DNA from: Chrysochromulina tobinii
Lineage: Eukaryota
Direction: 5' to 3'
NCBI GenBank assembly: GCA_001275005.1
Contig: JWZX01003295.1
Coordinates: 1-34,698 of the forward strand
Length of the DNA: 34,698 bases
Shown: positions 669 through 28,564 of the stretch, piece by piece
Layout: the number at the start of each line of letters is the position of its first letter
How positions within the stretch are numbered: position 1 is the first letter of the stretch
The notes under the pieces: generated by a model
Told to the model about the DNA's origin: nothing
Seen by the model: only the letters and a program-made list of their open reading frames with translations
The model's database searches: none
Position numbers and translations under genes: made by a program

Positions 669-2466
669 TCACGCGGTGATGGCCTGCAGAGCTCCTGCCA
701 CGACGCTGCCAGCAGTCGCCAGCCACACGCGCTTGTCAATCGCTCCGGCAGTCAGGAGGCCAGAGAGGACCGCGCCTGTCACGCCATCCGTCGCGATGTC
801 CTGTCCAGTCAGGTACAAGTTTGGCAGCGGCGTCTGCGGCGTGAGCCACTCTTGCGCGAAGCGCGCAGGCGTATGGCTCAGCCCATACGCCTCGCCCCAT
901 TGGGTGCCCAGATAGTAATTGTTCGAGAGCGGCGTGCCCAGATCACAGTACGCGAGATGGCCTCTGAGCTGCGGCAGCTTGGCAAGGACGGCTTCGGTCA
1001 TTCGGCTGGTCAGCTTCCTCTTGACGTCCTCATACTCCGCACCGCGATGTTTGATGCGAGTTCCCGCCCAGCCGGCCCAGTACTCGCAGCGCGACGGTGC
1101 GAGTGCGAGCACCACCTGCTTGCTGCCATGGCGGGCTGTCCAAGCAGGATCTTTGGACGAAGGCGACGAGATGAACAAGAGCAGGGGATGCTCCTCAGCC
1201 ACATTGCCGAGGGCCGGGGGTAGCGCGCCGTGTTGAGCCTCGTGGTCCCAGCCGTCGAAGCACCACAGGTTGTGCTTCGGTAGGTCGACCACCTTGGGGG
1301 ATGTCCCTTCGACCCCAAGGAACAGATAGAGGAACGCACAGGAGGGCTCCACTTCGCTCTTCGTGCCGACGGGCGGCGCAATCGGCGGTGCATCTCGTAT
1401 GGATCGGAGAATGCCATCGAGCCGGGGGCGCTGTCTACTCGGCACGAGGCGGCAAAAGGTGTTGATGGCGCCGACCGCCGAGATGACTCGCGTCGCTGTT
1501 AGGGTTTGGTCGCGCACGATCACGCCGAGGACCGCCCCGCTCGCCTCATCGCACACGAGCGACGAGACTTTCGCGCGCACAAGCACGGCCCCTCCCGCTG
1601 CTTCAATGGTGGGCACGAGGCGGGCGGCGAGCTGTGAGCAGCCGCCCACCGGGTAGTAGCCGCCGTTTGCATAGTGATTCAGAAGGACCAAGTGAAGGGC
1701 GTACGGTGACCGCGACGGCGGGACGCCGTAGGTGCCCCAAATGTAGCCAAGGAGCTGCTGGAGCTTCGGATCATTCGTGAGCGAGGCGAGGCCTTGCGCC
1801 GTCGTCTGCATCGGGCCCAGCATCCACCGCAGCGGCACGCCGATGGCGGAGGGCAGGTTCTTGAGGCAGAGGTGGAGGCTGAGCGCTACGTGTGCCCACA
1901 CAACGGCCCAGGGGTAATGACGGAGGGCGGCGGCCTCTCCAGGGAAGCGGCGGCGGAGCTCGTCGAGGAATGCCGACTTGGGGCTCAGGATGGGCACGCG
2001 CTCGGCTCCGAAGTGGACCTCATCAACCAGCGCTCCCGTGAGTGCCCACTCGATCCTGCCTGAGGTCACCGTGTTCATGAGCGTGCCGAGGATGTCGCCC
2101 ACGTAGTGCAGCCCAGTGTCAAATTCGAAGCCCCGCTCCTCGAAGGTGTGCGTGCAGCCGCCGGCAACGTCGTGCTGCTCGAGCACCAGCACGCGTTGGC
2201 CGCGCTTGGCCAGCAGCGCAGCAGCCGTGAGGCCACCCATACCGCTGCCGATGACGATTGTATCGATCTCGGCTGGCACCTTTTTCGAGGTGTAGCCATT
2301 CTTGAGGACGGCAAGGCTTGCCAGTGGCGCAGGGCTCTCACGTGGCTCGAGGATCTTGCCATGCAGACGTCGCCGAAGCACGAGGAGCCACAGGAGCAAG
2401 TAGGCGACAAGCAGTAGAGCAGCGCCCGCGACGATCCACAACGCATAGGCGTATGCTTCAAGCGGC

Positions 2467-2497
<31 letters not shown>

Positions 2498-2540
2498 GCA
2501 GCGGCCGGGAGAGAAGACGTGCAATCCACTTGGGTGCCAT
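669..2540 (-). CDS. RETSAT: All-trans-retinol 13,14-reductase-like / phytoene desaturase-family FAD oxidoreductase with N-terminal membrane anchor
   Basis: 623-aa ORF. Poly-Pro and TM helix, then Rossmann motif IVIGSGMGGL, LEQHDVAGGCTHTF..GFEFDTGLHYVG, YYPVGG, and C-terminal GTPLSNNYYLG / YGL / TPLPNLYLTGQDI..GVTGA, typical of the RETSAT/CrtI family. Confidence 0.88.
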
Positions 2541-2612
2541 TGTGCTGGTCTATAAGAACGTGCAGTATTCATAGTACACAGTACAGTAGGAATACCAGTA
2601 CAGTACCGGTAA

Positions 2613-2776
2613 CGGGGGGAGCCGGGACACCTACCGGTACTCCTCGCCGCTCCCGCCATAAGCTTCATGCCCGCCATAAGCTTCATGCTCACCATGGGCA
2701 TGTCGCACTTCTAAACCGCCCCCGCGCGGTACCCGCCAAAGTGTGAATGTGTGTCCGGCTCCCCCGGTGTCTTTTT
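2613..2776. repeat. Inverted pair of the dispersed motif (MITE-like arrangement)
   Basis: cggggggagccgggacac (2613-2630) and tgtgtgtccggctcccccggtgtc (2748-2771), with an internal 18-bp tandem cccgccataagcttcatg x2. Confidence 0.7.
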
Positions 2777-3126
2777 ACTAGTACTTGGTCGCGTAGGTTG
2801 GTGATTGCGGTTCATCAAACTACATGTACACAAAGGCAGCCTGGTGAGCGCGACATCCCGCTTTTCCCGGTCCCTGCTAAAGCTAGACCAGGCTTAGAAC
2901 ATCGCGGTGCTGGGTGGGAGGGAACACATCATCTCTCTTATCACTCATATGTACTTCTGGCTTGCGCGCATCAAATCGTGCGACGGGCTGTCGTGAGGAA
3001 TCGTGTGACCCCAAACGGCGGAGATACCCCATACCCAGGGCTCTCCGTATCCCCCCGTGCCCCGATCTTGTTCCATGATGGATACCGTACCATGTCGCAT
3101 GTGTGATGTGATCGACACCTTCACCA

Positions 3127-3855
3127 TCAGGCCGATCTTGATCGTGTGGTGTGACCGCGCGGAAGGTCGACCTTAGACAAATCGGCCGCCCGCTTTTCCT
3201 CCATGAGCCTATCTAACTTGGCGTACTCGGCGAGGAGTTCGTCATCATCCGCGTCGATGCCACCCAGCTGGCGGTCCATCGCATTATCAATCTCCCGCGC
3301 GTCCGTATGCACCTCCACCAAACCGTCCATTAACTCCTCCACTTTGTCCACGCCGCCAATCGTCTTTATCAGCACGTCGTTAGCCATTAAGTAGTCATTC
3401 AAAGACATAATGGTCGACTTCAGGTTCTCGAGGTTCATCTTCGACATATCGAGGGTCGTCAACCTTTGCTCATACATCTTCTTCCTCTTGAGACACTGCA
3501 GCGCCTCCCGTTTCTTGCCCGCCGCGTGAAACTTCATCGCGTTACCCCATTCCGAGTCGAGTTTGCACTGAAAGTAGTCCTCTTTCTTCCCGATGTTCAC
3601 GATCTGTTCGTCAATATTGGGAATCGCCGCCTTCGCCAGCAGCGCAGCAGCCGAAAGGCTTGCCAGCGGCGCAGGGCTCTCACGTGGTTCGAGGATCTTG
3701 CCATGCAGACGTCGCCGAAGCACGAGGAGCCACAGGAGCAAGCAGGCGACAAGCAGCAGAGCAGCGCCCGCGACGATCCACAACGCATAGGCGTATGCTT
3801 CAAGCGGCGGCGGCGGCGGCGGTGGCCGGGCGAGAAGACATGTATTGGGTGCCAT
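3127..3855 (-). CDS. Chimeric ORF: duplicated RETSAT N-terminus (TM anchor) fused in frame to a divergent Snf7/Vps32 (CHMP4-like) ESCRT-III domain
   Basis: 3631-3855 is a near-identical copy of 2205-2540 lacking 84 nt and with a shorter poly-Pro. The remainder has Snf7 hallmarks KKREALQCLKRKKMYEQRL, VDKVEELMD and DDDELLAE. Confidence 0.8.
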   Translation of the reverse strand: MAPNTCLLARPPPPPPPLEAYAYALWIVAGAALLLVACLLLWLLVLRRRLHGKILEPRESPAPLASLSAAALLAKAAIPNIDEQIVNIGKKEDYFQCKLDSEWGNAMKFHAAGKKREALQCLKRKKMYEQRLTTLDMSKMNLENLKSTIMSLNDYLMANDVLIKTIGGVDKVEELMDGLVEVHTDAREIDNAMDRQLGGIDADDDELLAEYAKLDRLMEEKRAADLSKVDLPRGHTTRSRSA

Positions 3856-3993
3856 GGGCTAAACGAACACAAGTGAGGGTTGTTTGATGATATGGGCCGA
3901 ACACAGCATGACTTTGCAAAAAAGGAGGTCAGCGCGCCGTCTTGATCACTTAAAAGGAACCGGGTCCACGCCTTGCGGTTCTCTGCTCTCTTT

Positions 3994-5523
3994 CTAATAG
4001 ACGAAGGTGCTGTGCGCGGCCATCCCCTTGATCAGCGCGTGCTGCAAGGCGTGTGCGCACAGTGGCCTGGCCGGCTGGTATCTCAATGCCCACCGCAGTG
4101 CGATCGCTTCACTGAATGTGGAGCGTCGGTATCCAGCAGGGCCGCAGAATTTCGACGTCGCGAAGAAGCCACGCGGCGCGGCGGCACTGACGCCTTGTTC
4201 CACGAGCATAGCGACCGTGCCTCTGGACAGCCAACTGCTGCTGCCCTCGAGAAGTTCGCTCGATTTGGCTGTTGTACCGGTACCTGCCTCGAGCGCAGCT
4301 AGGTCCGTACAGTTGAACAGCTTGCACAGCCCGCTCAAAAGCGGCGACCGAACGCCGCCGGGCGCGTTGGTGGCAACAAAGAGGGACGCGCCCGCGCCGC
4401 GGCTCCCCCCTGTGAGCCGGTGGACGATGCGCGATTGCAGCCAGGCCACATCACGCAGCATCTGACGCTGAGCAGCTTCAGCGGTGGCGAGCGCCGTGGT
4501 GGGCGCCCCGCCCTCACTGCCGATGCGGACGTCCGTATCCAAGAGGCGAAGATGCACGGAGGCGAACGGGGTGCGGTCGAAGAGCGTTCGGACGGTCGCC
4601 TCATGCATCCGACCGATCGCCGACGACCAGGGAAGCCGCAGCACCGCAGCGTACACAGCCTCAAAGCACGCATCGGTACGACGCAAGCCGTCGAGGTCGA
4701 CGTGCAAAAAATAGGCGCTGCCCATGCGCACGACCTCCTCGGCATGCAGCGGCTTGAACGCCTCGCGCAGGCTCACGGCCGAGTAGCGATGGTCTCTCGT
4801 GCAGCCGAGCAAGGGGAGCGGGAAGCTCCCGAAGGCTCGTCGGGTGCGCACAGGGAGCTTGGCGTAGTCGGCCACGTGCAAGCCCAGGCTCGTGAGCTCG
4901 TCAAAGTCGAAGGCACGCAGCAGCGATTCATACGGAGGCGACGGGTCGCTTGTAGAGCCGACCCTTGCCGCCGCCTTGAGCATCGCAGTGAGCTTGCGCT
5001 CGTAGAGCGCTTCGGCTCGCATTTGCAAATCGCTTTGCCAGCTCGAGTTCCTGCAGCGCACCTCGGGTACGCCGAAGGCGAGGTCCGAGTGTCGCAAGAT
5101 GGGTGGCAGCACGAGAGTGCGATTCGTCACGTACGCCACAAGCAAAGCACGTCGCAATGCAAACTCCTGGTTGCCAAAGCCGGAATGAGCGGCGTACACG
5201 AGAAGGCGGTCACCTCGCACCGGAGCGCAACGCTCGCGGAGAGACGACGATTGGAGTGCGGGCGAGCTGCTCGGAATTGTCAAGGTCGGAGGTGGCAGAG
5301 GAGGCGACAACGACTGTGGCTTCATGACCTGAGGCACGCTGCTGTTGAGCAAGAGCATCGCAAAGAAGCTGCTGGCAAGCAGCGCCGACAAGAAGACGAC
5401 ACGGCGCTTGATCCGCAGGGACTCGGCCGGTGTGTCGGGATGCCGCTCGTCTCCGTCGTCTGCAGCTGCTCCACCGTCCGCAGCGGTTGCGGCCGTGGTC
5501 GAACGAGCTCGGACCGACGCCAT
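3994..5523 (-). CDS. GDP-fucose O-fucosyltransferase-like type II membrane glycosyltransferase
   Basis: Short cytosolic tail, TM VVFLSALLASSFFAMLLL, Pro/Ser stem, GFGNQ..RALLVAYVTNRTLVLPP, SVHLR, LFVATN, and VEQ..S....F..STFS motifs of the O-FucT/POFUT-like GT-B fold. Confidence 0.75.
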   Translation of the reverse strand: MASVRARSTTAATAADGGAAADDGDERHPDTPAESLRIKRRVVFLSALLASSFFAMLLLNSSVPQVMKPQSLSPPLPPPTLTIPSSSPALQSSSLRERCAPVRGDRLLVYAAHSGFGNQEFALRRALLVAYVTNRTLVLPPILRHSDLAFGVPEVRCRNSSWQSDLQMRAEALYERKLTAMLKAAARVGSTSDPSPPYESLLRAFDFDELTSLGLHVADYAKLPVRTRRAFGSFPLPLLGCTRDHRYSAVSLREAFKPLHAEEVVRMGSAYFLHVDLDGLRRTDACFEAVYAAVLRLPWSSAIGRMHEATVRTLFDRTPFASVHLRLLDTDVRIGSEGGAPTTALATAEAAQRQMLRDVAWLQSRIVHRLTGGSRGAGASLFVATNAPGGVRSPLLSGLCKLFNCTDLAALEAGTGTTAKSSELLEGSSSWLSRGTVAMLVEQGVSAAAPRGFFATSKFCGPAGYRRSTFSEAIALRWALRYQPARPLCAHALQHALIKGMAAHSTFVY

Positions 5524-5886: not shown

Positions 5887-8800
5887 ATGGAGCCCGCACG
5901 GGCATTCACGCTGCGTGCCGACAGCGACGCAGAATCATCGGCCCTCGAACGGGAAGAGGTCGACAGTCGCGGGCTGCGCCTGTCCTTCACATCGGAAAGT
6001 GTGCGCCGTTCATTGCAAGGGGAAGAGTTGCATGAGACCTTGGGCGGCGGCACGTCGGGGTCGTTGTGGCGGCGCGCTGGGGAACTATTGACCTCACGCC
6101 ACGGCATATCGGTGGCCTCTTCAAATGACTCGTACACTTCTCATCGGTGGCACAGCCGTTGCAACGTCGACACCGAGAGCTCGCACTTGTTTGGCTCCTC
6201 GGCAGCGACGCTAGATTGCACGCTCCCATGGCATGCAGTGCTGCCGAGTGCACGGCCGGTCACAGCGGTGCCGCACCTAAACTTTGGCACGAGCCGCGCC
6301 GGCGACGCCGTGCCCCAAGCAATCGAATGGACGAGACGGCTTGGGTCCAATGGAGTGTACGATTCGAGTCATCGACCATTGAGCCTGGCGCGCTCGGGCG
6401 AGGGGAGCTCGTCGGGCACGCTTTTGACGGATCCCTTTGGCGCGTGTGCGCCGCCCATAGGCATCGGGGCCCCGTCCTTTGTCGGGTGCGGCGGCGTCGA
6501 CGGCTGGGGCCGCGCGAGCTTCGTCAATCGTGGCGCATTCAGAGCGGCGGCAGACTCGTCGGAAGTGTCGACGACATCGCATGTGGGGCGTGCGTGCGCG
6601 CGCGGCGTGGCCACGACACCACCGCCCCAAGCCGAGGCGGCCCGCGTCGCGGCTCGACTGATCGATGAAGTCTTCCATGCCTGTCGGGAGGGTGCGCCGC
6701 CGCAGCCATCGCTGATGCCACAGCGCCCACGGACGGCGCCAGCGCTCGTGCCGGCGGCGTCAGCGGTGCTCGCGGGCAGCGCTCCCTCCTACGCCCGCCC
6801 TCACGCGCGCGCCATCCCTCCTACGCGTGCCTTCTGCTCACCACGTCGCGCCATCCGCTCACCACGACGCTCATTCTGCTCACCACGACGCGCAACCTGT
6901 TCACTACGGCGCGCCTTCTGCTCACATACCGGTACTCGCGCCGCGCGAACTAACAGCGCTGCTGCCGGCCGCGTGGGAGGTTGTCGCCGGCGACGCCGTG
7001 CCCCAAGCAATCGAATGGACGAGACGGCTTGGGTCCAACGGAGTGCACGATGCGAGTCGTCGACCGTTGAGCCAGATGAGGGAGGCAATCAGCATGCAAT
7101 CAGAGGGGGGCTCGTCGGGCAGCCTGATGAGGGAGGCAATCAGCATGCAATCAGAGGGGGGCTCGTCGGGCAGCCTGATGAGGGAGGCAATCAGCATGCA
7201 ATCAGAGGTGGGCTCGTCGGGCACGCTCTCGATGGATCCCTTTGGCGCGTGTGCGCCACCCATAGGCATCGGGGCCCCGTCCTTTGTCGGGTGTGCGCCG
7301 CCCTTTGCCCCACTGGCGGACGCGGCCGAGGGGTGCGCAGCCGCAGCCGCAGCTGAAGCCGAAGCACCGGAGACGGTGGCTGCACCAGAGGCGGCGGCAA
7401 CAGCACCAGAGGCACCAACAGCACCAGAGGCAACAGCACCAGAGGCACCAACAGCACCAGAGGCACCGGAGGCGGCGGCAACAGCACCAGAGGCGGCGGA
7501 GGCGGCGGCACCGGAGGTGGAGGCAGCGGCTGCAGCAGCACTCACGGCGGCAGAGACGACATCGGCGCCAGCGCTCGGGACGGCGCCAGCGCTCGGGACG
7601 GCGCCAGCGCTCGGGACGGCGCCAGCGCTCGGGACGGCGGCAGAGACGACATCGGCGCCAGCGGCAGCGCCCGAGGCGGCGCCGGACGATGTCGCTTTGC
7701 GGGCGGAGGAGCCACCATGCTCAAGTGAGCGAGTGGTCGAGGCACTCGCGGCACAGGCGGCCTCGAGACACGCGCGTGAACGTGCCGCGGAGTCGCAACG
7801 GTCGCTCAAGGCAGCTGTTCTGCGTGCGCAAGCGAGCAACGGGCGTGCCGCCTCGTTTCTCGAGACGCTGACGGCTTCGGTCGCTGAGACGATCGCACGA
7901 GCGCGCGCTCAGGTAGGCACGCCGATGGAGGCGAACACTCCTCTACCGACGGCGCCGCCAGCCGGCACAGCGCCCGTCACGGCGCCCGTCACGGCGCCCG
8001 GCACAGCGCCCGGCACAGCGTCGTCACCGCCCATACCCTTGCCAGCTTCTGGGCTGCGCGCCTCGCTGGTACCCTCCTTGACGATGCCGCCATCCTCATT
8101 CGTGTCGCCGGACCGCTCGCCGGCCGCCTCGCCGCACCAGCAGCCGTTGGCACCCCTCGCGCCGCTCGCGCCGCCGTCGCGGCGCGTGAGGAGCGATGGG
8201 TTCCGACGCTCTCCCGACTCTGTCGTGGCGAATGCGGATTGGCTACCACCGATGGCCCTCCTTGGCAGCGATGTCGGCGGGAGGAGCGCTGTACCGAGCA
8301 GTAGCAGTGGCGGCCGCAGCGCTGTACTGAGCGGAAGCGACAGCGCTCATGCCTCAGCCTCGTCCCCGCTCGGTACAGCGCTCCTTCCGGGTGAGTACTC
8401 TCTAGACGGCGTCAACGTCGACACGGAGCAACTCCATGAGTACACGACGAGCGGCCGGTGCATCCTGCATGCAGACGGTACGCTCAGTGGCGAGGCACAG
8501 GAGACGAGCACCGCCTGGGAGAACAAGCTCACGTACAAACTCACACACGGCCATTGGACACCGGTGGGCCATCTCTGCTTCCGGCTGCAGCATGCCGACC
8601 ACCGCGCCGCCTACTTCGACCCCTTCTACTTTTCGGTCCAGTTCCAGCCCGCGCTGCCACGAGCGCTCACGACGGCGCGGTATCGGGGCGAGGACTGCCG
8701 CACGAGCTCGACCATCTCCTCAATCACGTCGATCTCGTCAATCACGTCGATCTCGTCAATCACGAGCCGCACGAGCTCCACCATCGAACGCCGCCGGGGC

Positions 8801-9795: not shown

Positions 9796-11323
9796 TCATT
9801 GCATGCGGAGCGCACGGTCGTCGTGCCCGTGGTCGGCGCCCTCAAACTCGAAGAAAAAGAAGGCCGAGCTGATGATGATGTACGTGGAGATGAGCATGGC
9901 GCCCTCGAGCCAGTTCGTCGAGCCGTCGTTGATGACGCTTGCGACGATCACCGTCGAGAGGAAGGTAATCTGTTCGAGCAGGACGAGGTCCATCAGTGGG
10001 AATCAAAGGTCATCCGAGGTCACGCAGTCAATGGGAAACAAAGGTCATCCGAGGTCACGCAGTCAATGGGAATCAAAGGTCATCCGAGGTCACGCAGTCA
10101 ATGGGAATCAAAGGTCATCCGAGGTCACGCAGTCAATGGGAATCAAAGGTCATCCGAGGTCACGCAGTCAATGGGAATCAAAGGTCATCCGAGGTCACGC
10201 AGTCATTGGGAATCAAAGGTCATCCGAGGTCACGCAGTCATTGGGAATCCAAGGTGCTCAAGGACATGCGCAGCGCCGATCCAAGGTACTTCCCACAGGT
10301 ACTCACCGCACTCTCAAAGAGGCCGAAGTCGAGGTCGAGGGGCTGGCCGATGAGCCAGCCGAGCAGCACCATCACCGGGACCACGAAGAGCGCAATTTGG
10401 GTCGACGAGCCCTGCGCCACCGCCAGCGCAAGGTCCATCTTCAGCCGGAACGCCATCACGACCGCCGTCGAGTGCTCGGCCGCGTTGCCGATGATCGGGA
10501 TGATGACGAAACCCACGAATGCGGGCGTGAGGCCCATGCCCTCGGCGGCGCCCTCGACAGCACCCGAGAGGAGCTCGGACAGGTACGCGAGCACAAGCGT
10601 CGCCCCGAGCAGCCACAATATCGACCCCCAGAAGCCCAGGTACGACTCCTCTTCTTCGCCCTCCTCGGCCTCCTTTTTGTGTTCCTCCTCGCCAGGCTTG
10701 AGAGCCGGGCACGGGCAGAGCGTGTTCATGAGGAAGAGCGCGTACAGGAAGAGGAAGATGACGGAGATGAAGCGCGATATCGAGAGCGACTCGTTGCCGT
10801 GGGACTCGAACTGACCGGTGGCCGTCATCAGGGTAGGGAGAATGACGCCGATCACGGACACCTGGAGCATGGTGGTATTCGCTGTCGCCGTCGTCGATCC
10901 ATAAGCCACGTTCCGCTTGACGGAGCCGGAGGCCAGGCACGCGAACCCGAGCACGAGGAGGGCGTTCGAGAGGATGGATCCGAGGAGCGAGAGCTTCACC
11001 ACCTCGAGTTGGCCAGCTTTGAGGAGGAAGAAACAGATGATCATCTCGGTCGCGTTGCCGAATGTCGCATTGAGGAGCCCGCCGATCGTCTGGCTGGTGT
11101 GGAGCGCTGTCTGCTCCGTGGCGTCGCCGAGCAGAGCGGCGAGCGGCAGGATTGCAAAGCAGCAGAGGCTGAAGATGATGGCTTCGGACTCAAAGAACTC
11201 CTCGCTCACCAGTGCAATCGGAACAAACAACAGCAGAATGTACAAGCGATTGCCGGTCAGCATCGTATAGCTGCCCTTGAAGAAGCTGCCCACACCATCG
11301 GCGGCGGGCGGGGGGTGCATCAT
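9796..11323 (-). CDS. CAX: Ca2+/H+ exchanger (CAX/VCX1 family); exons 11323-10307 and 9969-9796
   Basis: Alpha-1 GGLLNATFGNATE and alpha-2 IIPIIGNAAEH..AV..A...KMDLAL..AQGSSTQIALFVVP, with an acidic central loop. Intron gtgagt...cag (10306-9970) joins GLFESA to ITFLSTVIV...DGSTNWLEGAMLISTY. Confidence 0.93.
9998..10255. repeat. 35-bp intronic minisatellite (gggaatcaaaggtcatccgaggtcacgcagtcaat) x7 plus a partial copy
   Basis: Units start at 9998, 10033, 10068, 10103, 10138, 10173, 10208 and 10243, nearly identical, all within the CAX intron. Confidence 0.95.
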
Positions 11324-15314: not shown

Positions 15315-17171
15315 TCAGATGTGGAACCACGCATGCTCCAGCGCGGCCTGTGCAGTCGGGCGCGCCTTCGGGTCAAAGGCGAGCAGCCTGCCAAGGAGCT
15401 CCTTGCACTCGGGGCTGAGGGCACGCCACTTGCCCAGCGCCACTTTATGCGATTCCTTCTTGAAGCTTTCGTCACTCAGCGGCCGCGCGGGCTGCGAGGG
15501 CTCGGCGAGGGCTGCGAGGGGTATCGGCGGGTACGGGAACTGCTGCATGAGCAACACATACAGGACGACTCCCAAGCGGAAGATGTCCATCTCCTTGGTC
15601 GCATGCGGCAACACCGGCAGCAAGCTCTTTTGCGCCTGGTTGAGCAACTCGGGTGCGCAGTAGGCGAAGCCGCACGTGCCCGGGTTGGCCACCTTGGGCT
15701 TCTTACCCGGGAAGCTCGCCAGCCCAAAGTCGATGATCTTGGCCTGCAGCTGCGCGGTAGTGCCGCCCGTCCCGACCACGAAGAGGTTCTCGAGCTTCAC
15801 GTCGTTGTGCAGCACGCCACACTGGCCATGAAGGTGCGCAAAGGCGCTGAAGATTTGGTGGAAGAGGTGCTTCGCAGTGGCCTCGTCCACGCCCTGCTCG
15901 TAAAACGCCATCAAATCCTCACCATCGAGGAACTCGCACAGCACGAACGCCTCGGCATCGGTTTCAATCACCTTGTCGAAGCGCATGATGTTTGGGTGCG
16001 GAGTGAGATCGCGCGCCGCGCACAGTTCAGAGATGAGGTCCTCGTGGTCGAATTTCTTGTAGCACTTCATGACCCGATGCTCACCCGTCGCGATGTTGGT
16101 CACTTTCCACAGGGCGTGCGACGATTGATCACCGCCCGAATTGGCGATTTGGTCTTGCATGTCAAGCCACACGTCGCCGTCGGCCGAGGTGATGAGCCGT
16201 TTGGTCGTCACGGATCCCTCGGTAGCCCCTTCGAGCCGCTGTTTTTGTTTCAAACGCCCACCTGCGTCGAACACGACCTTCGAGATGAGTGCTGCGCCCT
16301 TGCGGCGCGACTCGAGCCCCCATTGGGCCTCTCGGAGCTTCTCCTCGAGCAGGCGGTTCTTCTCGTGAGCGGCACGCCTCTCTGCCTCAACTTGTTGCTC
16401 CTTGCGCTCGTTGGCCTCGAGCTCCGCCTTCGCCTTTGCCAGCTCGGCGTTCGATGCTCTGTCGGCGCTTCCCCCGGGGCTCCTAGCGGTGGAGGCGGCG
16501 GCGGCGGCGGCGAGGCGCAAGCACCGTTCCTTGAGCTGCTTGCCTTCGGTGCTCAGCGCGGCGAGCTCTGCCTTCCGGTCGTCCTCCTCCTTTTGCGAGC
16601 GCCTCAGGTCGGTGCTGAGCGACTCGATGCTGCCCGTGAGCACGAACACGTCGCGGACCGCCGCCGCCACCAGCGCCGCGAGCACCAGCGCCATCCCCAA
16701 AAAGACCAACCGCTGCGTCTCTCCCGCGTCGCCCCCGAGCTCCTTGATGTCGTCCGTCGCCCCGGGGAGCTCATCGATGCCGTCGAAGAGGCGTAGCAGC
16801 TCGTCGTCATCAAAGCCCCCATCGCCGTCCTCGTCGAATCGTCCGAGCAGCTTGCCCCACCGCTTCACCGCCGCCGAATCGTCCGACTGGTTCAGGCTCG
16901 CCAAGAACCAGCGCGACACTTCTTCCTTGCTGAGATTGCGGTTGCCATCGGCGTCCATCCGCGCACGGTACTTGGCGAGCACCACAGCTTGGCTGTGCTG
17001 GATGTACACGCCGTGCCCGATCACGAACAACGAGACGCTCAAAAGCGCGACGAGGAGGAGCTTGAGTTGAGACGGGTTATCAAATTTGCCGCTCTTGGGC
17101 ACACTGAAGAAGTCCCGTGCACTCGGCGGCCGCTTCGGCGTGAGTGGTCCATCATCCGGCTGCGGGTCCAT
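15315..17171 (-). CDS. Two-TM protein with EF-hand pair, coiled coil and C-terminal CAMK-like Ser/Thr kinase
   Basis: TM LLLVALLSVSLFVIGHGVYI; EF loops DADGNRNLSKEE and DEDGDGGFDDDE; TM LVFLGMALVLAALVAAAV; E/K/R coiled coil; kinase motifs VMK, HPNI, HNDVKLEN, DFG, GT..AYCAPE, DIFRLG, RPTA..ALEHAWF. Confidence 0.85.
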   Translation of the reverse strand: MDPQPDDGPLTPKRPPSARDFFSVPKSGKFDNPSQLKLLLVALLSVSLFVIGHGVYIQHSQAVVLAKYRARMDADGNRNLSKEEVSRWFLASLNQSDDSAAVKRWGKLLGRFDEDGDGGFDDDELLRLFDGIDELPGATDDIKELGGDAGETQRLVFLGMALVLAALVAAAVRDVFVLTGSIESLSTDLRRSQKEEDDRKAELAALSTEGKQLKERCLRLAAAAAASTARSPGGSADRASNAELAKAKAELEANERKEQQVEAERRAAHEKNRLLEEKLREAQWGLESRRKGAALISKVVFDAGGRLKQKQRLEGATEGSVTTKRLITSADGDVWLDMQDQIANSGGDQSSHALWKVTNIATGEHRVMKCYKKFDHEDLISELCAARDLTPHPNIMRFDKVIETDAEAFVLCEFLDGEDLMAFYEQGVDEATAKHLFHQIFSAFAHLHGQCGVLHNDVKLENLFVVGTGGTTAQLQAKIIDFGLASFPGKKPKVANPGTCGFAYCAPELLNQAQKSLLPVLPHATKEMDIFRLGVVLYVLLMQQFPYPPIPLAALAEPSQPARPLSDESFKKESHKVALGKWRALSPECKELLGRLLAFDPKARPTAQAALEHAWFHI

Positions 17172-17654
17172 GATCCTGCAGCAGCCAGGGGGGTGAGGGG
17201 CCACACTCAGCAGTCACCTCCGAGTCGCACTTGTCAGCGGGCGAACGTGGCGCGACGACAAGGCGTGGGCGGGGACGGCCAGTTTCAGCTTGAAAACTAA
17301 TCTCGAGGTTGGTATTCTCAGCCCCGCGTGCGCGCGCAGCGCGGAAGCCGCAGCGGCGGGTCGACAGTATCTGATCTGCTTTTCATCATGTGCGGCCGTC
17401 CCCCGGGCCACGCTGGCGCACGCTCAATCAGCAGCACTGGGCACACAACACACCGCCGCGATCGCGAATCCACCTTTCGTTCGCGGCCCAGAAGTATACG
17501 GGTAGAATCAGGCGAATCTCATGCATAAGAAATCACACATTCATTCACACATACACCGTTTCACACGGCGGGGACCCCCGGCGCGGTTTAGAAGGGCGAC
17601 ACATGTCCACGGTGAACTTGAAGCTCATGGCGTGTGCGGCGAGAAGGATGGTTG

Positions 17655-23799: not shown

Positions 23800-26700
23800 T
23801 CAGACGTCGATGGTGACGTTGTACTGGATCGCCGCTTGACGCAGCGCCGCCTTGCCCATCTCGTTGATCATGTCGTCCTGCGCACCGATGTACTTGATCG
23901 ACTTGTTGTGCGGCAGCATCTCAATGATTGTCTTCGCTCCCTCGTAACCGATTTGGTTGGCGAGGAGGAACACGCGGTCCACGGAGGTGTTGATCTTGAG
24001 CGCATCAGCGAGGGCCTTCATGCCCTCAGCATGGATGGCACAGAAGCGCAAGTCGAGGTCGCGCACGTCGTCATTCGTCTTGAGCATCTCGGCGATGTAG
24101 GCCATGCCCTCTGCCTTGAGCGGGTTGCGCTCCAGCCCGAGCTCGAGGAGCACGGGTCTACAGTTTGTGATGAGCCTCGCGATGAGCGAGGCCGAGAGTG
24201 GCCCGAGGCGACGAGACGAGAGGTCGATGAGCTCCTTGGGCTTAAAGCCTTTGAGCTGCAAGACGGGCACCCCATGCGAGTTCGAGCCCGCGAGGGACTC
24301 AAGCACGAGTGTGTCAAGCGTGATGTTGCTCGTCACGCCCTCGTAGAGCGCGTTGATACCCTTGACGTCGATGCGCTCGTTGCCCGACAGCCGCATCATG
24401 CTCAGCTTCGAGTTGAACGTCAGGGCTCTCGCGAGCTCGGCAACACCGTTATTGTCGAGCTCGTTGCCATGCAGATCGATGGACACGACCGTCCGATTGA
24501 AGCGCAGAAACTGGCGGAGAGCCTGGCAGCTCTTGATGCCGAGCTTGTTCTTGACGAAGTTGAGCTCGACCATCTCTGGACCTGCGTTTAGCGCGATCGC
24601 CCAGACCAGGTTCACGCCAAGGACGTCAGCAAGGCCCTCGCCCGAGCACCCGGCAACCGCCACCGTCGACAGCGCCCTATAGCTACCGAGCGAGGCGATC
24701 TTTTGCGTCACATCGAGCATGGCGTCGTCGTCGGGCACGGCTATCTTTGCCGCGCGTAGCTGCTCGAGGGTCACATCGGCTCCGGGCCCTGCGACGAGCT
24801 CGAGAGCGAGGCCGGCTTGCGCACACTCCTTGAGGGCCGCAAAGGTCGGTGATCCGACGCCAAGGCTACCAAGAATCTCCTTGGCTGAGTAGCCGATCGT
24901 CTCCAGCTCTGCGGTCGTGTACTTGGAATCGCGCAGGTCCATGGCGCTGAATCCAGCGAGCATGAGATGCTTGGCCATCTCATCAGGGAAGGCGGACGCG
25001 CTCTTGCCGCCCTGTTTGAACACGCTGGCAAGCGTCTCATCGGCCGACGCGGAAACACAGATGCGCGAGGCGTCTGAGCTTGGCGGCACCATCTGCACGC
25101 TCGCGAAAGTGCTCGGCTCGAGCATGCCACCGCAGCAGTTGCGCAGGGTCGCGGCGACGAGGATGGCGTCCACGTCGCTCATGCTGCTGATCTGCGCCGC
25201 ATGGACGGCGCCGCAGAAGCGCAGTTTCTTGCGGTTTGCGGCCGCGGAGACCAGCATGACGGCAGCCTCCACGCCAATGCGCGCGGGCAATCCAAAATCG
25301 AGATTGGTCAAGTTGGGGAGCTCTGAGGCGTCGGCAAGCAGCGCAGCAAGCGACGCAACGCCCGCCGACGTCTTCTCGCTAAAGTCGATGTTGCCGGCAA
25401 AGGGCAGCGTGAGCTCCCTGAGCGCGGCCTGGCCGCGCAGCGGCTCCCAGTTGAGGGCGATGAGTACCTTGATTTGGTGCTCGGTCACGCGGAGCTCCAT
25501 TAGACCCTTTCCGAGGCGCTGTGACACGGCGTTGCCGATCGTGGTGCCGCAGATGGTGAAGCAGTTGAGCATCCAGCGGTCGTTAAGCACATGCAACGCG
25601 CCGCGCTCCCAGACGGACTGCGCCTTCAAGGCCAAGTGCTCAGGAATGAGTTCATCGCTCAGTCGCGCGGGCGTCCAGCACAGGCCCTCCGCGAAGAAAG
25701 ACTCCTGGAAGGAGAGATGCTTGAATTGGTACTTGGTGAGTGGATCGGTCGTCTTTCTGGTCGCTTCGGCCACGCTCAAGCCCACATCGAGTGTCTTGAT
25801 GAGCGGCACGCCGGCCTCTTCGATCTCGAGCCGCTGCCACATGGCGAGGCCCGCATCATCGCCCTCGAGCACAAGCTTCACGTCGAGGCTCGTGAACTCG
25901 CGCCGCTGCACCAGGTGGTTGGTCATCGCAATCTTGGCGAGCATCAGCCCGCAGGTGACGTACTCGGCGTGGTCGGTGAAGCGGCGCTTCATCGACGCGC
26001 GCACCGCCGCAGTGTACAAGTGGAGCCGGGATGTCGGCAACGAGCCCGAGCCATAGGCGGCAATGTGCTCCAGGCAAAGCACGTACATCGAGAGCATCAC
26101 GGGGACAGCGCTCGCCAGCTCAAAAAATTCCATCGTGTTTGCGAACACCGCAGGTGCGTCTGCCTTCGCGACGCCGCTCTTGAGCAGGTTGGAGTAGATG
26201 GCGTCGTACGACCCGCCGCCCAGTTCCCTCATCACGGCGAAAACCTCCTCGGACTCCTTACCCGCCGCCCGCGCCGCCTTGCCGATCTTGACCAGTACGA
26301 TGAGGTGGTCGTACTCCTTGCTGTTCTTGAGCTGGAACGCGACCGCCTGCTTCTGCTGCTCGTCGCTGAGCGGCGCCAAGTCCATTGTGATGAACTTGCC
26401 ATACCTTTCGAGCCGCACGCCCTCGGGGCGCGACGAGGCGACCATGCGAATGCCCATCGGGTTGAGGCCGTCAACGATGAGATTCTCGATTTTTGCCTTG
26501 AGGCCGGCTGCCTCGTCGACGCCGTCGATGCAGAGCACGAGAGCGCGCGCCTCGTACGCCTGGAGCAGCAAGTCCCTGGTCTGGCCTGTAAACTCAACGT
26601 TGATGTACGCGGAGAGCAGGTCGCTCTCTTGCGAATTGAGGGTGCCCCGCTTCATGTACGACGCGAGGCGCTGCACGCTGAGCAGCATCGGAACCAGCGC

Positions 26701-27603
26701 GATGCCCACATCAGTTTTCGATTTCGACTGGAGGCGCTTTGCCACCAAGCGCGTCAACTGCTGCAGTGAGACCGTCTTGCCCGTCCCAGGGCCGGCACGC
26801 ACGAGCACGCCCTGGGCGCCATGCATGCCCTGCGCGCGCTTGGACGATGACTTGGTGAGGTGCTCCGTCAGGTCCTCCATGCTCGAAATGCCCGCCCAGG
26901 CTGTGCCCTCAGACTTCTTATCGGTCAGCACGGTGATGTAGATGAGTTGATCGTCGCAGTTGAGGCGGTTGCCGGTGATGGCATCCTCGATGAGCGAAAA
27001 CTGTTCGACGACCTCCTGCAAGTACATGGCACGCACCTTGTTGTACTTCGCCACGGACTCAAAGCGCTGCTTCGCGTGGTTGAACTTGTTCAGGTCGATG
27101 AGAGTCTTGCCCGGCTGCCTCGCGACAGTCACCTGGTGCGTGCTGCCGCTTCCGACCCGCTTCACGACGGTCGCGTCGACGACACTCTGCGAATCCTTGG
27201 TGACCATAAAAAGGCGCTCGCCCGGCTCATACTTTGGGATTTCGGCCAAGCGCCCCTCGACCTTACGGTTGCCGATGTGCACGTCGATGGCGCTGCCAAT
27301 CTTCTTGGGCAGCTTCATGACGAAAGCATTGAAATCTTCGGCGGCGGCATCATCGTCGCGATTGGCCGCGTCTTCTGTGTACGCGGTGAAGTCTTCGAAG
27401 GTCGCGCTCGCCGCGGGGCGCTTGAGCACGACCTTGATCACCTCGCCGCCATTGTCTGCGAAAAGTTCGTACTCGTTTTTGTTCTCCAACTTCTTTCCGA
27501 CCTTGTACGACGACCAGCCGTCACCCGCCGGGATCTCCACTCGCACGGGCACACCCTTGCGGATCATGAACGGGTCCTCGGGGGAGCTCAGCCCGCACCC
27601 CAT
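23800..27603 (-). CDS. NACHT NTPase-LRR (NLR-like) protein with N-myristoylation/palmitoylation motif, about 1267 aa
   Basis: Start MGCGLSS; Walker A AGPGTGKT; Walker B LCIDGVDE; ASSRP; VPVML; winged-helix YQFKHLSFQE; C-terminal RNI-like LRRs (DLHGNELDNNGVAELARAL, LAN.IGYEGAK). Confidence 0.85.
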   Translation of the reverse strand: MGCGLSSPEDPFMIRKGVPVRVEIPAGDGWSSYKVGKKLENKNEYELFADNGGEVIKVVLKRPAASATFEDFTAYTEDAANRDDDAAAEDFNAFVMKLPKKIGSAIDVHIGNRKVEGRLAEIPKYEPGERLFMVTKDSQSVVDATVVKRVGSGSTHQVTVARQPGKTLIDLNKFNHAKQRFESVAKYNKVRAMYLQEVVEQFSLIEDAITGNRLNCDDQLIYITVLTDKKSEGTAWAGISSMEDLTEHLTKSSSKRAQGMHGAQGVLVRAGPGTGKTVSLQQLTRLVAKRLQSKSKTDVGIALVPMLLSVQRLASYMKRGTLNSQESDLLSAYINVEFTGQTRDLLLQAYEARALVLCIDGVDEAAGLKAKIENLIVDGLNPMGIRMVASSRPEGVRLERYGKFITMDLAPLSDEQQKQAVAFQLKNSKEYDHLIVLVKIGKAARAAGKESEEVFAVMRELGGGSYDAIYSNLLKSGVAKADAPAVFANTMEFFELASAVPVMLSMYVLCLEHIAAYGSGSLPTSRLHLYTAAVRASMKRRFTDHAEYVTCGLMLAKIAMTNHLVQRREFTSLDVKLVLEGDDAGLAMWQRLEIEEAGVPLIKTLDVGLSVAEATRKTTDPLTKYQFKHLSFQESFFAEGLCWTPARLSDELIPEHLALKAQSVWERGALHVLNDRWMLNCFTICGTTIGNAVSQRLGKGLMELRVTEHQIKVLIALNWEPLRGQAALRELTLPFAGNIDFSEKTSAGVASLAALLADASELPNLTNLDFGLPARIGVEAAVMLVSAAANRKKLRFCGAVHAAQISSMSDVDAILVAATLRNCCGGMLEPSTFASVQMVPPSSDASRICVSASADETLASVFKQGGKSASAFPDEMAKHLMLAGFSAMDLRDSKYTTAELETIGYSAKEILGSLGVGSPTFAALKECAQAGLALELVAGPGADVTLEQLRAAKIAVPDDDAMLDVTQKIASLGSYRALSTVAVAGCSGEGLADVLGVNLVWAIALNAGPEMVELNFVKNKLGIKSCQALRQFLRFNRTVVSIDLHGNELDNNGVAELARALTFNSKLSMMRLSGNERIDVKGINALYEGVTSNITLDTLVLESLAGSNSHGVPVLQLKGFKPKELIDLSSRRLGPLSASLIARLITNCRPVLLELGLERNPLKAEGMAYIAEMLKTNDDVRDLDLRFCAIHAEGMKALADALKINTSVDRVFLLANQIGYEGAKTIIEMLPHNKSIKYIGAQDDMINEMGKAALRQAAIQYNVTIDV

Positions 27604-27718
27604 CCCGGCGAGCGAGCGGACGAGCGCGCCGAATGGAAGCACAGTAGCCTCTATCCACGCTGTGCGCGCCAACCACTTACAAACTTTCAACCTTAAGTTT
27701 TCGTACCTTCCCAGTTCC

Positions 27719-27747
27719 AAAACACCGGGAGGAGCCGGGATACACAC
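27719..27747 (+). promoter_or_regulatory. Solo copy of the dispersed motif in the NLR/PFDN3 bidirectional promoter
   Basis: aaaacaccgggaggagccgggatacacac. The regulatory role is inferred from position only. Confidence 0.4.
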
Positions 27748-27859
27748 GGGACGGACGCACAGATCACACAGATCTTCTCGTGACGCCATAGTGTGGAATG
27801 CGAAATGCAAACGGCGTTCGTGACGGCGCTCTGACGACGAAGAGGCCTGCGCCGCGAAC

Positions 27860-28564
27860 ATGGCGGCCCCCTTCACTGCGGAGGATGCTGAGGCCTCGAC
27901 GAAAGAGGCCATGCCGACGGCTGTATTCATTGTGCGCTCGCGCGCCTGCCATGATGCCGACTCCCCAAGTCGCTGCACGCTATGCCGAGCTTTGTCCGAC
28001 CGTCGCGGCTCCCGCCTTTCCTCTCGTTGCTTGCAGGAGGACATCGAGGCTTACATGAAGAAGGAGGGCGACCCTGGGACGGCGCTCGACAAGTTACAGA
28101 AGCTCTACCAGGTCTTCAAATTCATCGAGCAGCGGCTCACGCAGAAGAAGAACAAACTCAAGATGAAGAAGCCTGAGATTGAGAAGACGTATGCAGCACT
28201 ATGCGCAATGGAGGAGCAGGCGAAGAAGGGCGAGCCGCTCGTGATGCACTACGAGCTGGCGCAGTCGGTGAGCGCGAAGGCCATCGTCAACGTGCATGAG
28301 AGCGACAAGGTTTGCCTCTGGTTGGGCGCGAACGTCATGCTCGAGTACCCGCGCGCTGAGGCGATCGCTCTGCTTGCGCAGCAGCTCGCAGACTGTAAAA
28401 AGGCGCTCGCGACGACGATCGATGACATGGGCTTCCTGCGCGACCAGATCACCACGACCGAGGTCAACATGGCGCGTGTCTTCAACTGGGACGTTAAGGA
28501 TCGGCGGATCAAGAAGGAGAAGGAGGAGAAGATTGCACGCGGCGAGGCGGTCGACGTCGAATGA
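27860..28564 (+). CDS. PFDN3: Prefoldin subunit 3 (VBP1/PAC10); exons 27860-27931 and 28037-28564
   Basis: MPTAVFI|EDI after removing a 105-nt in-frame intron gtgcgc...ttgcag. KVCLWLGANVMLEY and FLRDQITTTEVNMARVFNWDV are diagnostic. Confidence 0.95.
   Translation: MAAPFTAEDAEASTKEAMPTAVFIVRSRACHDADSPSRCTLCRALSDRRGSRLSSRCLQEDIEAYMKKEGDPGTALDKLQKLYQVFKFIEQRLTQKKNKLKMKKPEIEKTYAALCAMEEQAKKGEPLVMHYELAQSVSAKAIVNVHESDKVCLWLGANVMLEYPRAEAIALLAQQLADCKKALATTIDDMGFLRDQITTTEVNMARVFNWDVKDRRIKKEKEEKIARGEAVDVE

What the first reader, a model, noticed from the sequence alone, without database searches (positions are those of the whole stretch)
3127..3855. Young chimeric gene: RETSAT membrane anchor fused to an ESCRT-III (Snf7) core
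Seen: the first ~75 codons are a near-identical copy of the adjacent RETSAT 5' end (2205-2540), including the TM helix ALWIVAGAALLLVA[Y/C]LLLWLLVL-RRR. They run in frame, without stops, into a Snf7/CHMP4-like domain (KKREALQCLKRKKMYEQ, DKVEELMD, DDDELLAE) that looks more AT-rich than the host genes. Known: canonical ESCRT-III subunits are soluble and bind membranes transiently through an amphipathic N-terminal helix or myristoylation (Vps20), and are recycled by Vps4 via C-terminal MIMs. Inference: the Snf7 N-terminal membrane helix has been replaced by a true TM anchor, helix 3 looks shortened and the C-terminal MIM region looks lost. This would be a permanently tethered ESCRT-III seed or inhibitor, possibly at the ER, created by local exon shuffling.
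Basis: partly seen in the sequence, partly recalled or inferred. Interest (0 to 1): 0.85.

Follow-up and report, generated by a model that had tools for sequence, protein, structure and literature searches.

The report
Membrane-anchored, tailless Snf7 chimera in alga
In a freshwater haptophyte alga, a real, transcribed gene joins the membrane anchor of a neighbouring enzyme to a tailless copy of the membrane-cutting protein Snf7; it is one of many scrambled Snf7 copies in this lineage and may act as a tethered brake on membrane scission, though it may equally be a near-neutral duplicate.

Summary
The chimera is real. The 242-aa ORF (3127-3855, minus strand) has a 27-residue transmembrane segment copied from the adjacent RETSAT-like gene, fused in frame to a Snf7 domain (Pfam E 6.7e-16). 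Contigs bridge the junction in 2 of 2 DNA runs and 1 of 5 RNA runs laid. The protein's 90% cluster has 37 members, including a Chrysochromulina parva gene model. The Snf7 part is host-derived, not viral. It lacks 10 residues of helix 3, and a frameshift replaces the 38-residue tail with 11 unrelated residues. The joins are intra-exonic microhomologies, not exon shuffling. The chimera belongs to a lineage-specific swarm of mosaic CHMP4 copies (tandem Snf7; PDZ, ARM or ubiquitin fusions; MGxxxS myristoylation-like starts); a prefoldin control shows no such swarm. Function is not shown: dN/dS on the chimera lineage is about 0.94, RNA contig depth is low, and three records look disrupted. Against pure drift, 5 of 6 indels or joins are in frame and the gene sits near single-copy depth in both DNA runs. 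Best reading (0.45): a tethered, Vps4-resistant ESCRT-III inhibitor, analogous to retroCHMP3. Near-neutral duplicate: 0.40.

The parts
3127..3855 (-). Chimeric ORF, 242 aa: signal-anchor + Snf7/CHMP4 core + frameshifted 11-aa tail
3655..3855 (-). Piece A, copied from RETSAT-like 5' end (2313-2540); 172-nt core 97% identical, 3 synonymous and 1 non-synonymous change in 50 codons
3718..3798 (-). Predicted transmembrane segment aa 20-46 (27 aa, Kyte-Doolittle 19-mer maximum 2.94), 5 basic residues in the 15 after it
3631..3659 (-). Piece B, copied from RETSAT 2205-2233 after an in-frame 84-nt skip at a GCCT microhomology
3630..3634 (-). RETSAT-to-Snf7 junction; RETSAT and the parent CHMP4 share CCAAG here
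   Evidence: bridged in X5, X10, X12
3175..3627 (-). Snf7 domain (PF03357 aa 77-227); helix 1-2 hairpin modelled at pLDDT about 90
3367..3369 (-). Site of the 30-nt in-frame deletion, matching yeast Snf7 about 108-117 (helix 3)
3127..3162 (-). Frameshifted tail: 11 unrelated residues replace the parent's last 38
2895..3126 (-). Likely 3' UTR, covered by contigs in RNA runs X11, X12, X13 and X15 (in part)
669..2540 (-). Intact RETSAT / CrtI-family FAD oxidoreductase gene, donor of the anchor
3994..5523 (-). Upstream neighbour, weak O-fucosyltransferase match (below cut-off); used as a depth and polymorphism control

Best explanation
This is a real, transcribed fusion gene in a Chrysochromulina-type haptophyte that joins the transmembrane segment of the neighbouring RETSAT-like gene to a diverged host CHMP4/Snf7 copy lacking most of helix 3 and the whole C-terminal tail, and it likely acts as a membrane-tethered, poorly recycled brake on ESCRT-III filaments. 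Shown: sequence anatomy, host origin, presence in several samples, RNA across the junction in one run, membership of a swarm of mosaic CHMP4 copies. Inferred origin: microhomology-mediated template switching put the RETSAT 5' end onto an already diverged paralog from a clade in which most members start with an MGxxxS motif, so one membrane anchor was probably swapped for another. Inferred mechanism: the anchor inserts N-out/C-in and holds the Snf7 hairpin in the cytosol. The retained helix-2 face (K60, K68, K71, S83, L87, I94 equivalents) would bind the membrane and a wild-type CHMP4 neighbour. The missing helix 3 would stop it adding on at the other side. The missing tail would remove autoinhibition and Vps4 removal. 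The product would be a one-sided, persistent cap or poison at low dose. The target process (virus budding, endosomal sorting, secretion) is unknown.
For: Junction bridged in DNA runs X5 (3498-3736, depth 74; neighbours 105 and 96.5) and X10 (3499-3718, depth 73.8; neighbours 72.3 and 69.5), so the gene is near single copy in both. PolyA run X12 has contigs over the junction (3578-3795), the helix-3 deletion (3339-3445) and the 3' UTR, and none over 3818-3949, where DNA runs continue. 37 cluster members; all 15 listed keep the junction and the same C-terminus. 5 of 6 indels or joins outside the poly-Pro repeat are in frame (p 0.018), and a neutral copy stays stop-free with probability 0.17, 0.09 or 0.05 at 0.10, 0.15 or 0.21 changes per site. 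The anchor piece shows 3 synonymous to 1 non-synonymous change. Polymorphism is 4 synonymous to 3 non-synonymous, like the neighbours (5:6 and 9:7; p 0.06 against neutral). The chimera sits in a 100/91-supported clade of 7, of which 4 start with MGxxxS and a fifth has it near the start, against 4 of 127 other representatives. Helix-3 residues M114, I117 and M107 are needed for Snf7 polymerisation (PMC4720517, passages). C-terminal truncation of CHMPs blocks sorting and viral budding (PMC7618577, passages). Truncated CHMP3 copies are natural inhibitors (bioRxiv 2021.04.27.441704, abstract and section 5).
Against: Snf7 core against the parent: dN 0.139, dS 0.208, ratio 0.67, bootstrap 0.36-1.39. 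Polarised with L007, the chimera lineage has 18 non-synonymous to 5 synonymous codon changes, ratio about 0.94, not different from neutral (p 0.80; 11 ambiguous codons of 122 left out). Five other swarm hairpins pool to 0.74. Only 1 of 5 RNA runs laid bridges the junction. In X12 the chimera's contigs have depth 9-25, against about 1476 for a parent-like piece and 310 for a sister paralog (contig depth is a poor measure of expression). Disrupted forms exist: P0049 and P0409 end early at aa 127, and P0001 lacks the TM. The in-frame statistic is inflated because the finding was chosen for having an ORF and because joins between coding sequences favour frame. Several yeast-interface equivalents on helix 1 and late helix 2 are also changed (R25, H29, Q90, E95, E102, M104), so it may not bind CHMP4 at all. 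No protein-level evidence.
Confidence: 0.45

Rival explanations
1. Near-neutral duplicate. The CHMP4 locus of this lineage spawns rearranged copies; this one picked up the neighbour's 5' end, is weakly transcribed and drifts, its frame kept by chance or by selection only against harmful products.
For: Lineage dN/dS about 0.94; low RNA contig depth; three disrupted records; neutral stop-free probability up to 0.17; many swarm members are heavily scrambled.
Against: Near single-copy depth in 2 of 2 DNA runs; 5 of 6 indels or joins in frame; synonymous-rich anchor and polymorphism; no swarm for prefoldin 3; repeated gain of membrane-anchor-like N-termini.
Confidence: 0.4
2. Tethered seed. The protein works like Vps20/CHMP6, nucleating wild-type CHMP4 filaments at the membrane where the anchor resides, without ESCRT-II.
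For: It keeps the helix-2 face and lacks helix 3, which fits a first-subunit position in the Snf7 filament geometry; it lacks the autoinhibitory tail; sister paralogs carry MGxxxS starts like myristoylated CHMP6.
Against: An integral, Vps4-resistant seed could not be removed after scission (inference); no purifying selection seen on the core; helix-1 basic residues R25 and H29 equivalents are lost.
Confidence: 0.12
3. Assembly artefact between the 97% identical repeats.
For: The 172-nt repeat can collapse in short-read graphs; X12's junction contig carries two RETSAT-type alleles; L001 and L002 are identical to the window and may not be independent.
Against: Unique sequence on both sides of the junction is bridged in X5, X10 and X12; L003 differs by 2.5% yet has the same fusion, and L004 links the chimera's 3' end to the RETSAT 5' end; a C. 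parva gene model has it (P0075).
Confidence: 0.02
4. The Snf7 part was captured from a giant virus or other foreign source.
For: GC 0.533, below the host genes.
Against: About 86% DNA identity to the host's intron-bearing CHMP4 over the hairpin; nested in a 97/92 clade with it; no relative in viral contigs in 2 scans.
Confidence: 0.01

Closest known systems
Snf7/CHMP4/Shrub (ESCRT-III, PF03357)
   Same: Helix 1-2 hairpin, helix 4 and the acidic helix-5 region; best PDB sequence hits are Shrub 5j45, CHMP4B 4abm and yeast Snf7; descends from the host CHMP4.
   Different: Integral TM anchor instead of the short N-terminal motif; 10 residues of helix 3 missing; 38-residue tail replaced; relaxed evolution.
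retroCHMP3 of New World monkeys and mice (bioRxiv 2021.04.27.441704)
   Same: Duplicated, C-terminally truncated host ESCRT-III lacking VPS4-binding and autoinhibitory sequence, with an ORF that persists.
   Different: CHMP4-derived rather than CHMP3-derived (that paper found no truncated CHMP4B retrocopies); has a TM anchor and a helix-3 deletion; retrotransposition not shown; inhibitory or antiviral activity untested; in an alga.
Vps20/CHMP6 myristoylated nucleator
   Same: ESCRT-III core with a dedicated N-terminal membrane anchor; sister paralogs have MGxxxS starts (motif rule recalled).
   Different: No Gly2; the anchor is a TM helix; derived from CHMP4; ESCRT-II binding not tested.
Bacterial PspA/Snf7 homologs with a TM segment (PMC11237479, passages)
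   Same: ESCRT-III-superfamily coiled coil joined to a TM segment; the paper notes fusions in under 5% of eukaryotic Snf7s.
   Different: Independent origin; those occur in operons with AAA+ ATPases and transporters; this one is a eukaryotic, lineage-specific chimera.

Membership tests
Snf7/CHMP4 (ESCRT-III) | PF03357 above gathering score | tested here: met
   58.9 bits against 27.3
Snf7/CHMP4 (ESCRT-III) | Helix 1-2 hairpin fold | tested here: met
   Model helices 63-111 and 115-166, pLDDT about 90 over aa 81-140; top Foldseek rows are Vipp1, Asgard ESCRT-III and Snf7, though none reaches E 0.001; CHMP4B hairpin rmsd 1.9
Snf7/CHMP4 (ESCRT-III) | Descent from host CHMP4 | tested here: met
   97/92 clade of 45 rows with the parent; only 77 columns for 62 rows
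Snf7/CHMP4 (ESCRT-III) | Short N-terminal membrane-insertion motif, soluble monomer | tested here: not met
   Parent's N-terminus replaced by a 27-aa TM segment
Snf7/CHMP4 (ESCRT-III) | Intact helix-3 polymer interface | tested here: not met
   30-nt deletion matching yeast about 108-117
Snf7/CHMP4 (ESCRT-III) | C-terminal tail with Vps4-binding motifs | tested here: not met
   Last 38 aa replaced by 11; reading the lost motifs as MIMs is by recalled analogy
Snf7/CHMP4 (ESCRT-III) | Polymerises on membranes | not testable with these tools
   Needs biochemistry
retroCHMP3-type inhibitor | Extra copy of a host ESCRT-III with the intact parent retained | tested here: met
   Parent at L005/L006, 231 aa, one 101-nt intron
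retroCHMP3-type inhibitor | C-terminal truncation | tested here: met
retroCHMP3-type inhibitor | Derived from CHMP3 | tested here: not met
   CHMP4-derived
retroCHMP3-type inhibitor | Retrotransposed (intron lost) | tested here: inconclusive
   The parent's only intron lies 5' of the copied part
retroCHMP3-type inhibitor | ORF persists beyond neutral expectation | tested here: inconclusive
   Stop-free probability 0.05-0.17, in-frame p 0.018 with ascertainment bias; lineage dN/dS about 0.94
retroCHMP3-type inhibitor | Blocks ESCRT-dependent budding | not testable with these tools
   Needs cell assays
Vps20/CHMP6 nucleator | N-myristoylated Gly2 | tested here: not met
   Starts MAP
Vps20/CHMP6 nucleator | Binds ESCRT-II Vps25 | not tested
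   No Vps25 sequence was in hand

The most novel reading that the evidence does not exclude
Freshwater Chrysochromulina have turned CHMP4 into a fast-evolving, combinatorial family of ESCRT-III decoys: Snf7 cores re-anchored by myristoylation motifs or a true TM helix, or fused to ubiquitin, PDZ, ARM repeats and other ESCRT-III pieces. They poison or redirect membrane scission, for instance against budding giant viruses. This gene would be an integral-membrane eukaryotic ESCRT-III and an algal, CHMP4-based counterpart of retroCHMP3.
Probability: 0.2. Interest if true: 0.88.

Novelty: new variant of a known kind. Interest (0 to 1): 0.55.

Why it matters
Eukaryotic ESCRT-III subunits are soluble and are recycled through their tails. 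Among 139 further representatives returned by the profile search, none had an N-terminal TM segment. A natural TM-anchored, tailless, helix-3-deleted CHMP4 is a ready-made test of what one-sided, non-recyclable subunits do to filaments. The swarm it belongs to matters more: an essential, conserved gene has been repeatedly duplicated and re-fused in one algal lineage while a control gene has not. If selected, that would extend the retroCHMP3 idea (host-encoded ESCRT poisons) to algae, in whose relative Emiliania a giant virus is reported to exit by budding (PMC5371807 and PMC12489294, passages). If neutral, it is still a clear case of new-gene formation by local template switching.

Tried and rejected
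No whole genome is held, so the swarm could not be counted per genome. Viral origin: two viral-contig scans found no relative; a third, with a deep alignment, could not be run. Complex prediction of the chimera core with a parent-like CHMP4 (P0008) gave no verdict (score 0.02, alignments not used); it is no evidence either way. The ESM Atlas returned only Snf7 clusters at 0.84 for the chimera and nothing for the C-terminal piece of P0115. My recalled impression that P0107, P0115, P0118 and P0122 carry CC2D1/Lgd (DM14) pieces was not supported by Pfam, PDB, NCBIfam or the Atlas and is dropped. The second ESCRT-III-like piece in P0121 gave only weak hits (Shrub E 0.5, Vps60 E 4); calling it Vps60 is a lead only. 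Many 'headless' Snf7 hits (for example P0008, P0014) are exon 2 of normal orthologs called from an internal Met, not swarm members. I first read X12's depth-310 contig as the parent; it has 3 differences and 194 intervening letters where the parent has 8 and 200, so it is a sister paralog. The two other representatives with a strongly hydrophobic stretch (P0163, P0161) have it at the extreme C-terminus and look like read-through gene calls. RNA runs X11, X13, X14 and X15 cover only the 3' half or UTR; lack of junction cover there is no evidence of absence. Three look-ups of earlier scan findings returned nothing. Literature: ten searches showed no paper on Chrysochromulina ESCRT-III expansions or a eukaryotic TM-Snf7, judged from listings; the library lacks most subscription papers.

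Full report
Observation. The window has an ATG-to-stop ORF at 3127-3855 on the minus strand, 242 aa, upstream of an intact 623-aa RETSAT/CrtI-family oxidoreductase at 669-2540 (several cluster members are named all-trans-retinol 13,14-reductase by their source). Residues 77-227 match Pfam Snf7 (E 6.7e-16), and the best solved relatives are Shrub, CHMP4B and yeast Snf7. The 5' part is copied from the neighbour in two pieces: 3655-3826 equals 2313-2484 at 97%, and 3631-3659 equals 2205-2233 at 90%, with 84 nt skipped between them. The copied part carries a 27-residue hydrophobic segment followed by five basic residues in fifteen. By the positive-inside rule (recalled) that predicts a cytosolic Snf7 domain.

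It is not a misassembly. Of 20 runs listed I laid 2 DNA and 5 RNA runs. Both DNA runs have a contig across the junction at depth close to the flanking genes (X5: 74 against 105 and 96.5; X10: 73.8 against 72.3 and 69.5), and neither shows a joint that skips the gene. PolyA run X12 has contigs across the junction (3578-3795), across the helix-3 deletion (3339-3445) and over the 3' UTR, and none at 3818-3949, part of which is a skipped repeat. X11, X13, X14 and X15 cover only the 3' half or UTR. The exact protein lies in a 90% cluster of 37; all 15 members listed span the junction, and one is a Chrysochromulina parva gene model. L003, 2.5% divergent, has the same fusion; L004 links the chimera's 3' end to the RETSAT 5' end; L001 and L002 are identical to the window and may not be independent.

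Origin. A metagenome scan returned 11 loci. L005/L006 hold a normal 231-aa CHMP4 with one 101-nt intron, which I treat as the parent. Against it the chimera shows a 30-nt deletion, a 6-nt deletion, a 9-nt insertion and a 2-nt frameshift, after which 11 unrelated residues replace the last 38. Both joins fall on short shared words: GCCT for the 84-nt skip, CCAAG between RETSAT and the parent. Neither donor piece is bounded by introns, so template switching at microhomologies (inferred) fits better than exon shuffling. In a tree of 62 hairpin sequences (77 columns, so many forks are unresolved) the chimera falls in a 100/91 clade of 7 fast-evolving paralogs inside a 97/92 clade of 45 that includes the parent. 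Viral contigs gave nothing in two scans. The lower GC (0.533 against 0.599) does not indicate foreign DNA. The age is uncertain, because gene conversion may be homogenising the 172-nt repeat.

The swarm. Searches returned 61 near-length hits of 143 candidates, 14 longer hits of 965 and 481 representatives, 150 listed. By my reading about 30 of the 45 rows in the parent's clade are rearranged rather than normal. They include tandem multi-Snf7 ORFs of 600-730 aa (L008, L010; one is annotated in C. tobinii, P0403), a PDZ insertion (P0111, just below the Pfam cut-off), ARM repeats (P0114, P0119), a ubiquitin domain lacking the terminal GG (P0121) and MGxxxS starts. Five of 43 proteins in that clade begin with MGxxxS/T and five more have such a motif near the start, against 4 of 127 other representatives; these may trace to only one or two captures. 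Some single-record mosaics could be assembly chimeras, but P0106, P0108 and P0115 have 4, 10 and 7 members. As a control, prefoldin 3 from the same window showed no swarm: of the 120 best hits I inspected the 18 oddest or closest, and the odd ones were intron read-throughs or partial calls of normal genes. That is one control only. X12 also holds a sister paralog with intact helix 3 at contig depth 310, an L008-like piece at 69 and a parent-like piece at 1476, against 9-25 for the chimera; these depths are a poor measure of expression.

Structure and likely mechanism. The model (mean pLDDT 71, pTM 0.45) has helices at 18-51, 63-111, 115-166, 172-194 and 204-228, confident only for the TM segment and the hairpin. 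Foldseek's top rows are Vipp1, Asgard ESCRT-III and Snf7, none at E 0.001. The deletion maps to yeast Snf7 about 108-117. In Tang et al. (PMC4720517, passages) helix 2/3 of one protomer packs on helix 3 of the next, M107E and M114E abolish filaments, and K60, K64, K68, K71, K79, K112 and K115 face the membrane. The chimera keeps the K60, K68, K71, S83, L87 and I94 equivalents but loses helix 3 and changes R25, H29, Q90, E95, E102 and M104 equivalents (register after 95 is less sure). It would therefore be at most a one-sided subunit. Tail truncation makes CHMPs dominant inhibitors of sorting and budding (PMC7618577, passages). I infer a tethered, Vps4-resistant cap or poison. A seed role is the mirror reading of the same geometry. 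Binding to CHMP4 is not demonstrated.

Is it under selection? Mixed. Against: core dN/dS is 0.67 (0.36-1.39) pairwise and about 0.94 on the chimera lineage, 18 non-synonymous to 5 synonymous, with 11 ambiguous codons of 122 left out. P0049 and P0409 stop at aa 127 and P0001 lacks the TM. For: 5 of 6 indels or joins are in frame (p 0.018, biased by ascertainment), the neutral stop-free probability is 0.05-0.17, the anchor differs by 3 synonymous and 1 non-synonymous change, and listed polymorphisms are 4:3, like the neighbours (3:2 if two RETSAT-type alleles are dropped; p 0.06 and 0.09; 11 rows's table were not shown). An inhibitor needs little constraint, so a ratio near 1 does not exclude function, but it gives no support.

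Comparison with known systems. By descent it is a CHMP4 derivative, but it fails three defining features of a working Snf7 (N-terminal motif, helix 3, tail). It most resembles retroCHMP3 in logic (bioRxiv 2021.04.27.441704, abstract and section 5) but is CHMP4-based, TM-anchored and not shown to be retrotransposed or inhibitory. TM-bearing PspA/Snf7 homologs are noted in bacteria, and eukaryotic Snf7 fusions are under 5% (PMC11237479, passages). None of 139 further representatives has an N-terminal TM segment. Budding of a giant virus from the haptophyte Emiliania is mentioned in PMC5371807 and PMC12489294 (passages); neither mentions ESCRT, so the antiviral link is speculation. Ten literature searches showed no report of this gene or swarm, judged from listings. 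No supplements were read.

Verdict. A real new variant of a known kind. Tethered inhibitor 0.45, near-neutral duplicate 0.40, seed 0.12, artefact or viral origin 0.03. Interest 0.55, carried as much by the CHMP4 swarm as by this gene.

Noticed in passing
L008:297-2483, L010:2404-4473, L011:2-1300; P0106-P0123, P0403: Long in-frame mosaics of CHMP4 pieces with PDZ, ARM, ubiquitin (no terminal GG) and unidentified segments; a lineage-specific swarm that deserves its own study. Two sub-lineages (parent-like and P0009/P0012-like) each seem to have their own derivatives.
   Followed up: partly
window 2572-2933 and 400-580: High-copy interspersed repeats flank the RETSAT gene (summed contig depth up to about 70-110 times single copy in X5 and X10; inverted arms 386-411 / 2605-2630; a related copy at 17560-17632). 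Possible role in the rearrangement untested.
   Followed up: no
window 669-2540: Some public models of the RETSAT-like protein (P0080, P0083; 523 aa) start at an internal Met and miss the TM anchor that the chimera copied.
   Followed up: no
P0072, P0065, X12 contig 3578-3795: Chimera records carrying RETSAT-type N-termini or alleles: gene conversion between the adjacent copies, or graph collapse.
   Followed up: partly
P0003: Single record with the chimera's C-terminal half (helix-3 deletion, frameshifted tail) but an MGAGSS-type N-terminus: either an ancestral or recombinant form, or an assembly chimera.
   Followed up: no
window 23800-28044 (-): 1414-aa ORF with a P-loop-like motif and leucine-rich C-terminal repeats by eye (NLR-like; label recalled, not scanned).
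   Followed up: no
window 15315-17171 (-): Protein kinase with weak EF-hand matches and two hydrophobic segments N-terminal to the kinase domain.
   Followed up: no
window 9993-10255 and 6297-7293: Near-identical local tandem repeats: 70-nt units at the 3' end of a Na/Ca-exchanger gene, and duplicated 89-nt blocks in 6297-7293.
   Followed up: no
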